Source: the human T2T-CHM13v2.0 reference genome, Homo sapiens. From it: a stretch of DNA of 64,000 bases. Shown here piece by piece: positions 21,048 to 56,549 of this stretch. Position numbers and translations under genes: made by a program. The DNA is taken from positions 7,552,001 to 7,616,000 of the forward strand of contig CP086569.2 in the NCBI GenBank assembly GCA_009914755.4. Direction: 5' to 3'. Position 1 is the stretch's first letter. Every line of letters begins with the position of its first letter. The notes under the pieces are model-generated. The model had not been told where the DNA came from. It worked only from the letters and a program-made list of their open reading frames with translations, and searched no databases.

Positions 21048-23369
21048 TTCAGCCATATGTCACAATTCCTTCAATAAGCAAGACCCAGGCAGGAGATCAG
21101 AGTTACATTACGTAGATGCTAGTTTCAGTGATATTTCAAAATGTCCTCTGGGTGAAGGACACAGGCTGCAGAGACATATCACCTACCTGAAAGGCCCAGA
21201 AATATGTAATAGTACCCCCTATTGACAGGGCCCAGGCAAAAGAGTCATGTTATTATGATTCTGACCCATCAATATGTAACAATGAACCCATGGGAAGGAA
21301 TATGAGCCAAAAAGTCTCAACACCTGGGTACTAGGATGAGTCATATGATCCGATCTCCACATCTTTGAGTGTGACAGCTTTAACTTTTACCTGAGAAAGT
21401 ATATTACAGTCACAGTCTTATATGTGTTGCAGGACAATATATAACACTGTCTACAGGAGATGAGGGTTTTATAAACCTGTATGAGAGTTGCAAAGTTCTC
21501 TGAGGTCTACATGCTCCTATGGACTCACAATCTTACATATTGCTCCAAACTCAGGTCTAATAGTCAACATCTTTCCTATAGGCAGGGTTAAGAAAAAAAT
21601 CCATTATTATGCCAATGAGCTGGATCCACAAATGAGTTACCATCCCAATTCTTGTCGGATTAACATATAAAAGTCAAACCTCCAACTTTGTGCTGTATTC
21701 CTTTGTTAGACTCAGGACCTCAACATTGGGCATTATAAATATTGGATGGTGACAATTTTAATTTCACCTAGGTATGTAAACATGAGTCTCAATCTGAACT
21801 TTTTGCTGGGCCCTGTTAGGAAACACTCTACCACCAAGGAGTTTGAAAAATATAAGTCAGTGTTGTAAGCTTCTGTAACATTGGTAGAAATATGTAACAG
21901 AGGACCTTACCTATTGCTCTAAACCTAATGATGTGAGATAAGATATCTCCTATTGGCTGAATCCCAACATAAATTTGATCATCTATGCCTGTCAACTAAA
22001 GCAAGGTGTATGTATTAATCCCATATGTGGGCAAATAACTAGGCAGGAGGGAAATATCTCTTATATGCTGTGCCAGCCAATATGTCAAAATACCTTTTCT
22101 AGGCAGGGTATAGGATATAAGGTCACATTAACTGGGTGCTGGACCCAGTAATATGACCCTATTCCACATGTGGAAAATACCCAGCCAAGTTATGAGAGCC
22201 AAAACATCGACATAATGGGCTGAAGCTATGTCAAAATACCTTCAGTGGCTCCAACACAGGCCGAAAAGTCATATCATAAGGATGCTGGTCTTAGCAATAT
22301 GCAATATGCCATAATTTCTTCTTTATGGAAAACACAGGCAGGAGAGTAACATCATCAGGATGTTGGTCCGTGCAATTGGTCAAAATTCCTTTTTTGTGGG
22401 CATGTTCAGAAACAAGAGGAGAGTTACATATTCTGAGTGCTGGGATCAGCTATGTGCCAAAATCTTCTTATTGTGAAGGCCCAGTCAAAAAATAGAGTCA
22501 TATCTTCATACTATGGGCTCAGAAATATGTCCAAATGTTTCCATTAGGTAGGTCTCATTGAGATGAGGAAAGTCATATCCTAGGTGCTTCCCTTCATATA
22601 TGAACAAAGTAACATGTTTGCAGAAATCATGAAGAAGAACCACATCACTTGGGTGCTGGGTCCTGAGATATGTCACAAGGCCTTCTTAGAATATCATCAA
22701 GCACAGAGGGTAACATAAACTATGTGCAGATTCTCTGTTTATTCCACAATGTTCCATGAGTGTAGGTCCCAGAGAGGGAGTCATTTCAGTCAGGTGACAG
22801 CCCAAGAGACATGTTACAATGTCCTCTGTGAAGCATAGACCTGGCTAAAGAGTACCCTCACCTGTATGCCTGGCCTAGAAATATGTCACTCTTAAGGTTG
22901 GCAGGGCCCAAGCAGGAGAACCACATAACCTAGGTGATGGGCCCAGATATATGTCATAATGTCCTGCTTTCAGGTTGGCTCTGGCAAAAGAGTATCCTCA
23001 CATGCTTGATTGGCCTTGCTATATGCCGCTATCCTTCCTTTGTGCAGGGCCCACTCCAGAGATGAGAGTTACATCACCTATGAGGTGGACACAGAAACAT
23101 GACACAGTAATTTTGATGGACATGGCACTGGCAAGAATGTAACATCACCAAGCTGCTAGATCCAGTGATATGTCGCAACCCTCACTGAGAGAGCACCCAG
23201 GTAGGAGAGTCACATCCCCTCGAGGTTGAACTAGGTAGATATCACAATTTCATATATAAACTCGGACCTTTCTGCAAAGTAAAACTACACAGGTGCTTGG
23301 CAAATATGTGTATCAAAATAACACTGTCAGAAAATGTCAAAGGGGAGATTTACAATACCGCTCATGTTC

Positions 23370-53900: not shown

Positions 53901-56549
53901 TATAAGAGGCAAAATTTCTTCTATTGCCTGGTCCCACATATAAGAGTCATTATGATGCCTATTAGCTGTGCCTAGGTGTATGTCACCATGCCTTCTTTGG
54001 TTATAAAACAGACAGAACAAACATATCACCTAAATTCTAAGCAAGAAGTATTCCAACCTTCTCTTTGTTAGCAGGGCACTAACAGAAAATTTACAAAACT
54101 TTGGTGCTAGTCCAAGTTGTATGGCATAATGCCTCTTCTGGAGAGTGTCCAGGCAGTTGAGGAGAGTCACATCACCTAAATGATGGGCCCAGAGATATGT
54201 CACAAAACCTCCTGTTGAAATGGCCCAGGAAAGAGAGTCACGCTATTTGGAGGCAGTGTTTAAAAATGCTATACTCTTCACTGGAAGGAGGTTCAGGCAA
54301 ATGAGGAACATCACATTACCTAGATGATGGGCCCATAGATATGTTATAATTTTTTCTGAGGACACTGTTATGACAGGAGAGTCAAACTAATAAGGTTGTT
54401 GGTCCAGGTATATGTCAAACTGTCATATGCAGGCTATAATTAGGCAGGATTATTAAATCACTAAGGAGCTGGACAAACGTATATGTCACAATAACACCAG
54501 TGGAAAGGTTCAGGAATGAGAGTCATCATTCTGCCCATACTAGCTCCAGGTATAAGAGTTGCTATTATCCCTTTGATGTGTTCTCAGGTATATGCCACAA
54601 TATCACCTGTGGGCAAGGTGAAGAAAGGTAAGTCACATCACCTTAGTGGGCTCTGGTCCAGTGAAATATCACAATCCTCCTGGTGGGCAGGACTCCTGGA
54701 AAACAGTCACATCACCTGGATGCTGTTTTAAGTGATATATCAAAATCCACCCTATGTGCAGGGCTTAGGCAGGAGATGAGACAAACTTAAGCAATTGGCC
54801 TGGAGATATGTCACAAAAGCCCCTAAGTGCAGAACCAAGGCCGGAAAGTGTCCTCGCTTTGCTTCTGGGTTCAGCAACATTTCACAATCTCTCTGGTGGT
54901 TGGAACTCAGGAAAGAAAAAAGAAAAATCACCTAGGTGCTGAACCAAGAGTTATGTTAAAAAGCTTTCTATTGGCAGAGCCCCACAAAAAATGAGTTGCA
55001 TCACCTGAGTGCAGTACCCTGTTATGTGTCACAATGCACAATAAGTACAGTGCCAAGGCAGTAGAAAGAAGTCACATCACTTACATGATGGATCTAGAAA
55101 AAAGCCACAGTGCTCTCCGTAGTAAGGGTTCAGGACAAGATTTTACATCAGCTGCATGCTGGTGTTAGTGACATGTAAAAGTGCCCTTTGTCACATTGCT
55201 GAAGGTGTTATATATTGCTTGTTGCAGGTGTGTCACAATTTCAACTGTGCTCTGGGCCAGAAAGGAGAGTCAAAATACTCAGATACTGGGCAAAGTCACA
55301 CTTCTCATTCACATACTGAAAAATGTTCAGAATCAGATTCACAGTCCCACACAAGTCCGAGCTTTAGGTATGAGAGTCAACATCTCCTATGATTGAGTCA
55401 AAGTAGAGGAGTCACAATATCAACAATGGGCAAGATGCATGTGTAAAAGCCTCAATCCCACTTGAAGATTGTATTCCAGGAGGAGAGTCAAATCACTAAA
55501 TTTCGCTGAATCATGGTTCAAACATCACCAAACCACCTGTGGATCTGATTCATATGTGAGTGTAACAATTTCTAGCTTTGACTGCTTATGTGAGGTAGAA
55601 TTACTACATCATTCATAGGCTCTGTTTATGTGTGAGAATGAAAACCATGCCAGCTGGGTGTGCATCCAAGAGTCACAATAACACATGGTCGCTGGTGCCA
55701 TTTACAACATGCTTTGTACAACTCAGACTTTATATGATATGACTGAGTAGGCTAATTTTCTGTGAATTCTTATAGGTGGGAGATTTGGACTTTATCCATG
55801 GCTATAAGATACACTATGAGAGTTAAAGTATTTCCCATGGCTGGGTGCCTTCATGAGAATTATTATTGTGTATGTGCACTGATTTCAGGTGTATATCATA
55901 ATTTTGCCTTTGGACAGAGACAAGACAGAAGAGTCACATCATTTGCATACTGAGCCATGGATACCCTATAATCTCCTCTGTAGGAAGGAGCAACTCCCAT
56001 GGGTCAAATCACCTGGGTGCAATCTCAAATAATAGGTCATCTTGACAGCTGTATACGGGATTGAAAAAATAGTGGATAGTCACATCATCTAAGTGTTGGG
56101 CTTAGCCATATGATATAATTCCCTCTCTTGACAGAGTACAGAACAAAGGGGGGAGGTTCACATCACCTATGTTTCGCACTTGGGGTATGTCACAATTTCA
56201 TCAGTGAGCAGGACCCAAGGAGGAGAGGTGAGCCACATTACCATGATACTATATATAGTGATATATCATAGTGTTGCCTGTGGGCAGGACACCAGAAGGA
56301 GAGATACATCACCTAGAAAATAGGCCTAGAGATATGTGACAATATTTCCTGTTTGCTGGGCCTAAGATGAAGAGTCGTATTATTATGATTCTAATCCAGC
56401 GATATTTCACAATCCACCTGTAGTAACGAATTTGAGTCATTAATCTCAACACCTAGGGTTACTAGGCATAGTGGTGTGACAAAATCTCCTTATGTTTTAG
56501 GGTGACACTTTTTACTGGTGTGTATTTAAGTGTCACAACCTAACACTAC
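32950..56549 (+). repeat. Rearranged higher-order repeat copies: a D-to-D interval of only ~2.5 kb (32950-35440, A-containing segment deleted), an expanded copy with duplicated C module (37350-42870, C modules near 38170-38900 and 39940-40650, no D), and long intervals 42870-47640-55600
   Basis: Landmark spacing: D-to-A is constant at ~1.9 kb (35440 to 37350, 45730 to 47640, 53700 to 55600), whereas A-to-D varies (2.9 kb, absent, ~6.1 kb). Confidence 0.45.
50770..51165. other. Approximately 400-bp non-satellite insert interrupting a higher-order repeat copy. Unclassified, and CpG-containing unlike the surrounding array.
   Basis: The homologous copy at 47,640-50,740 has no counterpart for aataacttttagtatagaattaataacggaag...ggtcaagctccccactgagagggccaattagttc...ataacgtcccctaatatttcc. 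The satellite resumes at ~51,170 in register with ~47,880 (ctggctgggtccaggtatgagagttattattctgcatgtg vs ccggctgtgtctaggtatgagagttattattgtgcagaag). Confidence 0.5.

What the first reader, a model, noticed from the sequence alone, without database searches (positions are those of the whole stretch)
21048..56549. 35.5-kb multi-layered satellite: ~75-bp monomers nested in a modular ~4.8-kb higher-order repeat
More than half of the window is a single tandem array. Reading it at three scales shows the following.

(i) Monomers of 73-78 bp with conserved cores ATATGTCACAATG and AGAGTCACATCACCTRGGTGCTGGGCCCAG. Neighbouring monomers are only ~60-70% identical.

(ii) Larger modules recur at kb spacing and are themselves degenerate monomer derivatives. 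Module A (~0.9 kb) has gagatttagta…ggctttatatgatatgcct. Module C (~0.7 kb) runs caacacctgg…ctattggctgaatc. Module D (~0.5 kb) has acacatgtcctgttttcatgtgtgacaattgacttcatcc.

(iii) The module order D-units-A-units-C-units repeats with a ~4.8 kb period, and the two canonical copies (23370-28200, 28200-32950) are ~80% identical by inspection.

I cannot place this structure among the satellite families I recall. The monomer core matches beta-satellite as I recall it, but there are no regular GATC sites and the composition has drifted AT-rich. The adjacent C2H2 ZNF exon is reminiscent of the complex beta-satellite blocks reported for the 19p12 ZNF cluster. Both of those points are recollection, not verification. 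Either way the array has an unusually deep hierarchy and is worth explicit characterisation. It could also be a poorly catalogued composite repeat.
Basis: partly seen in the sequence, partly recalled or inferred. Interest (0 to 1): 0.8.

Follow-up and report, generated by a model that had tools for sequence, protein, structure and literature searches.

The report
Old beta-satellite block beside ZNF pseudogene
More than half of this human window is an ancient, heavily decayed beta-satellite array with several nested repeat layers, sitting next to a dead zinc-finger gene; it is real, but it is the kind of block already described for the chromosome 19p12 zinc-finger cluster.

Summary
The array is real. 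Window 21005-56549 is one head-to-tail, single-strand repeat. The window is human: contigs from human-derived samples are 99.96-100% identical to its right flank.

- **Monomers.** Length is 68-78 bp with a mode of 71, not 73-78.
- **Relation to beta-satellite.** A profile built from canonical 68-bp, GATC-bearing beta-satellite gives 95 significant hits. All are on the + strand and inside the array. The GATC site is lost (GTGATCAG to GTGCTGGG). GC is 40.7%.
- **4.83-kb unit.** It is present in about 7 rearranged copies that are 67-77% identical.
- **Modules.** A, C and D are not three different things. They are copies of one 368-bp element (X), which is itself a decayed 5-monomer unit.
- **Layers.** The nesting is: monomer, X, 1.2-1.9-kb subunits, the 4.83-kb unit, and the 35.5-kb block.
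- **Block duplication.** Other human loci match specific copies at 84-90%, against about 73% for other copies. The whole block was therefore duplicated later.
- **Gene context.** The neighbouring gene fragment is a ZNF91-subfamily pseudogene.
- **Decay.** It looks largely neutral and GC-to-AT biased. No RNA family matched and the longest mechanical ORF in the array is 133 aa.

This matches the beta-satellite blocks reported for the 19p12 ZNF cluster (Eichler 1998). It is known and of low interest.

The parts
21005..56549 (+). Whole array: diverged beta-satellite-derived tandem repeat, single orientation, about 7.4 unit equivalents
23370..28199 (+). Reference copy of the 4.83-kb higher-order unit (about 67 monomer slots: about 45 recognisable monomers plus decayed stretches)
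21027..23375 (+). Partial unit (unit positions 2486-4827), 68% identical to the reference
28191..32951 (+). Full unit copy, 67.7% (BLAST) or 69% (MAFFT, excluding gaps) identical to the reference
32943..35440 (+). Unit copy with an internal deletion (unit 1-842 joined to 3182-4830 at about 33792)
35432..39545 (+). Unit copy (unit 1-4107), 71.4%
39514..41218 (+). Extra partial duplication (unit 2311-3413 and 3650-4104)
41232..45721 (+). Unit copy (unit 450-1748 and 1789-4830), 70-71%
45716..49871 (+). Unit copy (unit 3-2229 and 2262-4107), 67-75%
49840..52881 (+). Two further partial duplications of unit about 2176-3915
52918..56541 (+). Unit 4061-4830 followed by unit 1-2878. The last copy is cut mid-unit at the ERV LTR. 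The junction at 52881/52918 is shared with locus L093
23345..23666 (+). X has a 368-bp consensus and is a decayed 5-monomer unit
25230..25587 (+). It is preceded by a conserved 230-bp stretch at 25000-25229
26185..26825 (+).
23667..25002 (+). Monomer tracts 1 and 2 of the reference unit (about 18 monomers)
25588..26169 (+). Monomer tract 3 (8 monomers)
26827..28125 (+). Monomer tract 4 (about 19 monomers)
50801..51170 (.). Unique non-satellite insertion of about 370 bp interrupting an X copy
17300..18130 (-). Decayed ZNF91-subfamily KRAB-ZNF pseudogene: spacer plus about 7 fingers, with frameshifts and stops
56550..64000 (-). ERV-K-like provirus (LTR edge, env-like region, integrase, RT, protease, gag) abutting the right end of the array and running off the window

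Best explanation
This is a fossil beta-satellite block of the type interspersed among ZNF91-subfamily zinc-finger genes, most likely in human 19p12.

**Proposed history** (the order of events is inferred from divergence levels)
1. A beta-satellite-type monomer of about 71 bp was amplified in tandem by unequal exchange.
2. A 5-monomer stretch became its own repeat unit (X, 368 bp) and diverged.
3. X copies and fresher monomer runs were combined into subunits of 1.2-1.9 kb.
4. Three such subunits formed a 4.83-kb unit.
5. That unit was amplified about 7 times, with later internal deletions and partial duplications.
6. Homogenisation then stopped. The copies decayed at a broadly uniform rate with a GC-to-AT bias and near-complete CpG loss, as expected for methylated, non-coding germline DNA.
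7. The finished block was later copied as a whole to other places, together with ZNF gene cassettes, by segmental duplication.
8. An ERV-K-like provirus now sits at its right edge.

**Function.** It encodes no protein and matches no known RNA family. Any present-day role would be as heterochromatic spacer DNA between ZNF genes, and that was not tested here.
For: **Shown**
- The window is human. Contigs from a human gut metagenome and Logan runs are 99.96-100% identical to 59392-64000.
- Canonical beta-satellite was recovered from human-contaminated metagenome contigs. It has a 68/69-bp period, roughly 11-18 GATC per kb, and lies next to (GGAAT)n in L105. These features agree with published descriptions.
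- The profile built from it hits the array 95 times at E<=0.01, all on the + strand and all inside the array, with none outside.
- Consensus identity to the canonical monomer is 52/71 for the window and 57/71 for the class-2 loci.
- The higher-order unit map covers 97% of the array, and copies are 67-77% identical.
- Modules D, A and C are homologous to each other, with z-scores of 57-76.
- X carries in-phase, + strand monomer remnants at roughly 74-bp slots.
- Weak monomer hits inside the modules number 62 on the + strand and 1 on the - strand.
- X occurs only in the low-GATC class-2 loci. In some of them it is itself in tandem.
- Block-level paralogs match one specific copy at 84-90%, against 72-74% for the next-best copy. 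L093 spans the rearrangement junction at 52881/52918.
- Divergence is similar in modules (0.27-0.29) and monomer tracts (0.28-0.30).
- The GC-to-AT rate is 2.4 times the AT-to-GC rate, and CpG observed/expected is 0.08.
- No mechanical ORF in the array exceeds 133 aa, and there are no Rfam hits.
- The best full-coverage relatives of the pseudogene are named ZNF723, 726, 98, 66, 737, 492, 431 and 100-like.

**From the literature**
- The 19p12 ZNF cluster is interspersed with beta-satellite blocks.
Against: - The chromosomal position could not be tested. ZNF91-subfamily members also lie at 7q11.21 (my knowledge), and ZNF92, 138, 679 and 722-like names are among the hits.
- Three classical beta-satellite hallmarks are not met: the 68-bp monomer, the Sau3A site and the GC-richness. 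Membership therefore rests on sequence homology only.
- Eichler 1998 could not be read. The match to its blocks of '25-30 kb, inverted, symmetrical' rests on my memory of the abstract.
- This window shows only one orientation.
- The Jukes-Cantor distance between unit copies is about 0.38. At ordinary primate rates this implies an age well above the roughly 50 My quoted for the cluster.
- There are no Alu or L1 elements inside 35.5 kb, while the flank has six old Alu fragments. Plain neutral fossil status does not explain this.
Confidence: 0.85

Rival explanations
1. The array is a functional heterochromatin element. The conserved core ATATGTCACAAT would be a protein-binding motif kept by selection, and the array would be kept free of retroelements because it nucleates or bounds H3K9me3/HP1 domains over the ZNF cluster.
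For: - Core A diverges less than other sites after unit amplification, even when stratified by ancestral base. For A/T sites the values are 0.100 against 0.159 (non-core) and 0.122 (module). For G/C sites they are 0.167 against 0.230 and 0.237.
- The same direction is seen in block-paralog alignments: 10-11% at core A against about 19-20% in X and unassigned sequence.
- There are no Alu or L1 elements in 35.5 kb, against six Alu fragments in the 21-kb left flank.
- ZNF clusters are known heterochromatin domains (papers listed).
Against: - The contrast is biased. Core sites were defined by profile hits in the window, which under-counts window-lineage changes at high-weight positions. A roughly two-fold drop is about what that bias alone would give.
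- The contrast is smaller (18-30%). Alignment anchoring or monomer-to-monomer gene conversion could produce it.
- G/C sites in core B and in the modules are no different from non-core sites.
- Overall divergence is high (about 29% pairwise) and uniform between modules and tracts.
- No chromatin data were available.
Confidence: 0.08
2. The array is a decayed beta-composite array (beta-satellite plus LSau, as on acrocentric arms and at 4q35), and element X is a degraded LSau unit rather than monomer-derived.
For: - Beta-satellite is known to occur as composites with LSau.
- X is a non-monomeric-looking element of about 370 bp that recurs between monomer runs.
Against: - The X profile hits 30 loci. 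All are low-GATC loci with 42-49% GC. None are the GC-rich (55-67%) composite loci, which should hold LSau.
- X contains + strand monomer remnants in phase at roughly 74-bp slots.
- No LSau reference sequence was available, so this test is indirect.
Confidence: 0.04
3. It is a new satellite family unrelated to beta-satellite, or a mosaic of interspersed transposons, or a repetitive coding exon.
For: - TRF barely detects the array.
- The monomer length, GATC content and GC content all differ from canonical beta-satellite.
Against: - The canonical profile gives 95 strand-specific hits confined to the array.
- 52-57 of 71 consensus positions are shared with the canonical monomer.
- There is no similarity to the Alu or L1 elements present in the flanks.
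- The longest mechanical ORF in the array is 133 aa.
- Monomer spacing is not in multiples of three.
Confidence: 0.02

Closest known systems
Beta-satellite blocks of the 19p12 KRAB-ZNF cluster (Eichler et al. 1998, Genome Res 8:791; cited)
   Same: - It is a block of tens of kb of beta-satellite-derived repeats with a complex higher-order structure.
- It lies next to a ZNF91-subfamily gene or pseudogene.
- Paralogous blocks exist elsewhere in the human genome, consistent with co-duplication with ZNF cassettes.
   Different: - Nothing was shown to differ.
- The map position was not verified.
- The window shows a single orientation, whereas the abstract (from my memory) speaks of inverted, symmetrical blocks. 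Inverted X pairs do occur in other loci.
- The block is at least 35.5 kb, against the 25-30 kb reported.
Canonical beta-satellite (Sau3A family, BSR; 68-bp monomer)
   Same: - The monomer is homologous. Shared cores are ATATGTCACAATG and ACATCACCT.GGTG, and 52-57 of 71 consensus positions are shared.
- It is arranged in head-to-tail tandem arrays with higher-order units.
   Different: - Monomers are 71 bp (68-78) rather than 68/69.
- The Sau3A site is replaced (GTGATCAG to GTGCTGGG).
- GC is 40.7% rather than about 47-52%.
- Unit copies are about 70% identical rather than homogenised.
- It contains the X element, which was not found in canonical loci.
Beta-composite arrays (beta-satellite interspersed with LSau; Altemose et al. 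preprint)
   Same: Monomer runs alternate with a longer recurring element.
   Different: The recurring element here (X) is monomer-derived. It is absent from the GC-rich composite loci.
Diverged or 'dead' higher-order layers of alpha-satellite flanking active centromeres (general knowledge)
   Same: It is a former higher-order repeat that is no longer homogenised and is decaying neutrally.
   Different: - It belongs to a different satellite family.
- It sits inside a gene cluster.
- Unlike old alpha-satellite layers, it has almost no retroelement insertions.

Membership tests
Beta-satellite (Sau3A/BSR) | Sequence homology of the monomer to the beta-satellite consensus | tested here: met
   A profile built from 68-bp GATC-bearing monomers gives 95 hits at E<=0.01. 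All are on the + strand and inside the array. Consensus identity is 52/71 for the window and 57/71 for class-2 loci.
Beta-satellite (Sau3A/BSR) | Monomer of 68-69 bp | tested here: not met
   The mode is 71 and the range 68-78. Canonical loci give 68/69.
Beta-satellite (Sau3A/BSR) | Sau3A (GATC) site in nearly every monomer | tested here: not met
   The array has 1.8 GATC per kb, close to the flank level of 2.1 per kb. Canonical loci have roughly 11-18 per kb.
Beta-satellite (Sau3A/BSR) | Relatively GC-rich (about 47-52%) | tested here: not met
   The array is 40.7% GC and the reconstructed ancestral unit 44.9%.
Beta-satellite (Sau3A/BSR) | Head-to-tail tandem arrays with higher-order units | tested here: met
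   The array has a single orientation and a 4.83-kb unit in about 7 copies.
Beta-satellite (Sau3A/BSR) | Annotation as BSR/Beta by RepeatMasker/Dfam | not testable with these tools
   No Dfam or Repbase library was available.
19p12 ZNF-cluster beta-satellite blocks | Block of tens of kb adjoining a ZNF91-subfamily gene or pseudogene | tested here: met
   The block is 35.5 kb and starts about 3 kb from a ZNF91-subfamily pseudogene.
19p12 ZNF-cluster beta-satellite blocks | Paralogous blocks duplicated with the gene cassettes | tested here: met
   Loci match a specific copy at 84-90%, against about 73% for other copies. One locus spans a rearrangement junction. Co-duplication with genes is inferred, not shown.
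19p12 ZNF-cluster beta-satellite blocks | Inverted, symmetrical arrangement of blocks | tested here: inconclusive
   There are no inverted self-matches within the window's array. Inverted X pairs occur in L043, L051, L107 and L028.
19p12 ZNF-cluster beta-satellite blocks | Map position in 19p12 | not testable with these tools
   No human reference assembly was searchable. The species was shown to be human.
Beta-composite (beta-satellite + LSau) | LSau units between the monomer runs | tested here: not met
   The X profile finds nothing in the GC-rich composite loci, and X carries in-phase monomer remnants. The test is indirect because no LSau reference was available.
Homogenised higher-order-repeat satellite (active-array type) | Unit copies nearly identical (over 95%) | tested here: not met
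   Copies are 67-77% identical to each other and 80-86% identical to the unit consensus.

The most novel reading that the evidence does not exclude
The 71-bp, Sau3A-less beta-satellite subfamily with its X element could be a distinct lineage specific to ZNF clusters. Its core motif ATATGTCACAAT would be kept by weak selection or biased conversion, and the array would exclude retroelements because it acts as a sequence-specified heterochromatin nucleator or boundary between KRAB-ZNF gene cassettes.
Probability: 0.07. Interest if true: 0.6.

Novelty: already known. Interest (0 to 1): 0.2.

Why it matters
It matters little as a discovery. Beta-satellite blocks between ZNF91-type genes were published in 1998, and this is reference human sequence.

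The analysis does give a clean dissection of one block:
- a 71-bp monomer subfamily without the Sau3A site;
- a 4.83-kb unit;
- whole-block duplication that came after the unit copies had diverged.

Two small loose ends could be followed cheaply on T2T assemblies: the slower-evolving core motif and the absence of retroelements. They bear on whether such blocks are passive passengers of ZNF-cluster expansion or help organise its heterochromatin.

Tried and rejected
- **TRF.** At default settings it finds the 75-bp period only at 25800-26000, so it cannot be used to map the array.
- **Single-base autocorrelation at kb lags.** It is blurred by indels and was replaced by self-BLAST.
- **Rfam.** The gathering-threshold scan of the whole window gave no hit.
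- **Viral contig scan.** The monomer pattern gave no hit.
- **Primary papers.** Eichler 1998 and Waye & Willard 1989 are not held.
- **Printed consensus.** A canonical reference was therefore derived from human-contaminated metagenome contigs instead.
- **L1 ORF exact look-up.** Nothing was on record.
- **Coding repeat.** Rejected: the longest mechanical ORF in the array is 133 aa and monomer spacing is not in threes.
- **LSau origin of the modules.** Rejected, on an indirect test.
- **Loci with a '35-bp period'.** These are beta-satellite next to (GGAAT)n, not a half-monomer satellite.
- **Individual modules against a tandem monomer consensus.** Only short patches matched, with z-scores of 2-7. 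The relationship became clear only on the reconstructed unit and the X consensus.
- **No locus at 98% or more identity to the array.** This is uninformative, because the window contains only one exact match to the scan pattern.
- **Core conservation in paralog alignments.** The contrast is judged largely an ascertainment artefact.

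
Full report
**Observation**

Region 21005-56549 is a genuine single-orientation tandem array.
- Base autocorrelation inside it peaks at lags 71 (0.301) and 76 (0.290), against a median of 0.258 (SD 0.008). Harmonics appear near 146, 216 and 289. The left flank shows none of this.
- The core ATATGTCACAATG at up to 2 mismatches occurs 121 times on the + strand, all inside the array, against 2 on the - strand. Spacing peaks at 71 bp, with a range of 68-78.
- An iterated monomer profile gives 289 hits at E<=0.01. All are on the + strand and inside the array. 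They cover 51% of it.
- Self-BLAST finds no inverted matches within the array. It does find many kb-scale direct matches at 65-75% identity, including an 8-kb alignment at offset 4828.
- Tandem Repeats Finder sees only a 200-bp patch, because adjacent monomers are only about 58% identical.

**Host**

An L1 ORF2 tail, Alu fragments and an ERV-K-like provirus in the flanks indicate a primate genome. The 239-aa gag ORF at 62925-63644 is found exactly in contigs from a human gut metagenome and from Logan runs. Those contigs are 99.96-100% identical to the window over 2-4.6 kb. The window is therefore human.

**Family**

No reference library of human repeats was available. I scanned metagenome contigs for the two monomer cores and recovered 120 loci of human contamination. 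They fall into two classes.
- Class 1 has a 68/69-bp period, roughly 11-18 GATC per kb and 45-53% GC, or more where GC-rich sequence is interspersed. Its consensus is ATATGTCACAATGCCCCTGTAGGCAGAGCCTAGACAAGAGTTACATCACCTGGGTGATCAGTGCAGAG. In L105 it lies next to (GGAAT)n satellite. These are the published hallmarks of beta-satellite: 68 bp, a Sau3A site in nearly every unit, and GC-richness.
- Class 2 has a 71/76-bp period, about 2 GATC per kb and 42-49% GC. It aligns to the window's array over 0.4-2 kb at about 70-90%.

The class-1 profile hits the window 95 times at E<=0.01, all on the + strand and inside the array, with none elsewhere. The window's 71-bp consensus shares 52/71 positions with the canonical monomer and 63/71 with the class-2 consensus. 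The Sau3A site is replaced (GTGATCAG to GTGCTGGG) and three bases are added.

The array is thus a diverged beta-satellite subfamily. It meets the homology and tandem-organisation criteria. It does not meet the 68-bp, GATC and GC-richness criteria.

**Anatomy**

Projection onto one unit (23370-28199, 4830 bp) explains 97% of the array as about 7 unit equivalents at 67-77% identity. There is an internal deletion near 33792. There are extra partial duplications of unit positions of about 2200-4100 at 39.5-41.2 kb and 49.8-52.9 kb. Both ends of the array are cut mid-unit.

A consensus of all copies was built; each copy is 80-86% identical to it.

Those three modules are homologous to one another. 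Local alignment scores are 96-117 against a shuffled null of about 12, giving z-scores of 57-76. They are copies of a single element, X, with a 368-bp consensus. D holds one copy, A holds one copy preceded by a conserved 230-bp stretch, and C holds about 1.7 copies. The window holds 32 X hits, all on the + strand, covering 28% of the array. Monomers and X together cover 79%.

X is itself monomer-derived.
- It carries + strand monomer remnants whose implied starts fall in roughly 74-bp slots, five slots in 368 bp.
- The same in-phase weak hits are seen in the reconstructed unit.
- Weak monomer hits inside the modules number 62 on the + strand and 1 on the - strand.

X occurs in 30 loci, all low-GATC with 42-49% GC, sometimes as tandem X arrays (L079, L120). 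It never occurs in canonical or GC-rich composite loci, so it is not detectably LSau.

The layers are therefore:
- possibly a half-monomer of about 36-38 bp (lags 36 and 38; weak support);
- the 71-bp monomer;
- the 368-bp X element;
- subunits of X plus monomers, about 1.9, 1.2 and 1.7 kb long;
- the 4.83-kb unit;
- the 35.5-kb block.

**Order of events** (inferred)

Within-unit monomers are 58-59% identical. Unit copies are about 69-71% identical. Several class-2 loci match one specific unit copy at 84-90%, while matching the next-best copy at 72-74%. L093 spans the rearrangement junction at 52881/52918. The block was therefore duplicated as a whole after its internal copies had diverged and rearranged.

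**Decay**
- Mean pairwise divergence between copies is 0.29. It is similar in modules (0.27-0.29) and monomer tracts (0.28-0.30).
- G/C sites change about 1.8 times as often as A/T sites. The GC-to-AT rate is 2.4 times the reverse. The reconstructed unit is 44.9% GC, against 40.7% now.
- CpG observed/expected is 0.08.
- The longest mechanical ORF in the array is 133 aa, and no Rfam family matches.

This is the pattern of a methylated, non-coding array that is no longer homogenised.

**Gene context**

About 3 kb to the left, on the minus strand, lies a decayed KRAB-ZNF exon with roughly seven fingers plus spacer, frameshifts and stops. Its best full-coverage relatives carry names such as ZNF723, 726, 98, 66, 737, 492, 431 and 100-like, and also ZNF92, 138, 679 and 722-like. 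By my own knowledge these are ZNF91-subfamily genes of 19p12 and 7q11.21.

The literature states that the 19p12 ZNF cluster is interspersed with beta-satellite blocks, and that the cluster arose about 50 My ago. The primary paper (Eichler 1998) could not be read. My recollection of its abstract is of blocks of about 25-30 kb of inverted beta-satellite repeats with a symmetrical higher-order structure bounding ZNF genes. That fits, apart from orientation, which cannot be judged from one block. Inverted X pairs do occur in other loci.

**Edges**

The right end of the array at 56549/56550 abuts TGTGGGATCTGG..., the terminus of an LTR belonging to a minus-strand ERV-K-like provirus that runs off the window. 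The array may therefore continue beyond the window. The left end meets what looks, by inspection, like old L1-like sequence.

**Loose ends**

1. Core A (ATATGTCACAAT) shows lower divergence after unit amplification than other sites, even when stratified by ancestral base. In block-paralog alignments it shows about half the mismatch rate of X and unassigned sites. The second contrast is biased, because core sites were chosen by profile hits in the window. The first contrast (18-30%) could come from alignment anchoring or from gene conversion. I treat it as unresolved rather than as evidence of function.
2. The 35.5-kb array has no Alu or L1 similarity, whereas the 21-kb left flank holds six old Alu fragments. 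The only foreign piece inside the array is a unique insert of about 370 bp at 50801-51170.
3. The Jukes-Cantor distance between unit copies is about 0.38. At ordinary primate rates this implies an age above the roughly 50 My quoted for the cluster. Either the copies were already heterogeneous when the unit array was assembled, or the local rate is high.

**Verdict**

Its identity is a diverged beta-satellite block of the ZNF-cluster type. This is a known kind of sequence in the human reference genome. Novelty: already known. Interest: low.

Noticed in passing
window 50801-51170: A unique AT-rich insert of about 370 bp interrupts an X copy. It has no similarity to other unit copies, the flanks or the 120 fetched loci. 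Its origin is unknown.
   Followed up: partly
window 56550-64000 (minus strand): An ERV-K-like provirus (gag, protease, RT, integrase, env-like fragments, all broken) has its LTR terminus directly against the array's right end. The array may continue beyond it, outside the window.
   Followed up: partly
window 5233, 10056, 10910, 12951, 18686, 20391 versus 21005-56549: There are six old Alu fragments in the 21-kb left flank and none in the 35.5-kb array, despite about 30% divergence among the array's unit copies. This suggests apparent exclusion of retroelements.
   Followed up: partly
monomer positions 1-12 throughout 21005-56549: The core ATATGTCACAAT diverges 18-35% less than other sites after unit amplification, when stratified by base. 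Bias, gene conversion or weak constraint cannot be told apart.
   Followed up: partly
L079 345-1479; L120 946-1697; L043, L051, L107, L028: In other human blocks the 368-bp X element forms its own tandem arrays, and in some it occurs as inverted pairs. The blocks therefore differ in architecture and some contain inversion points.
   Followed up: no
L014, L041, L080, L083, L088: A group of low-GATC loci with a 76-bp or 146-bp best lag match the window only weakly (about 74% over 190 bp at 50460-50649). This suggests a further, more distant subfamily of this satellite type.
   Followed up: no
window 17300-18130 (minus strand): A ZNF91-subfamily pseudogene has an 84-bp finger periodicity detected by TRF. 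No KRAB exon was looked for in the 3 kb between it and the array.
   Followed up: partly
L105 1-3590: Canonical 68-bp beta-satellite directly adjoins (GGAAT)n satellite, with an Alu-like junction piece between them. This is a typical pericentromeric or acrocentric context.
   Followed up: no
window 8689-8746: A (TG)29 microsatellite lies in the left flank.
   Followed up: no
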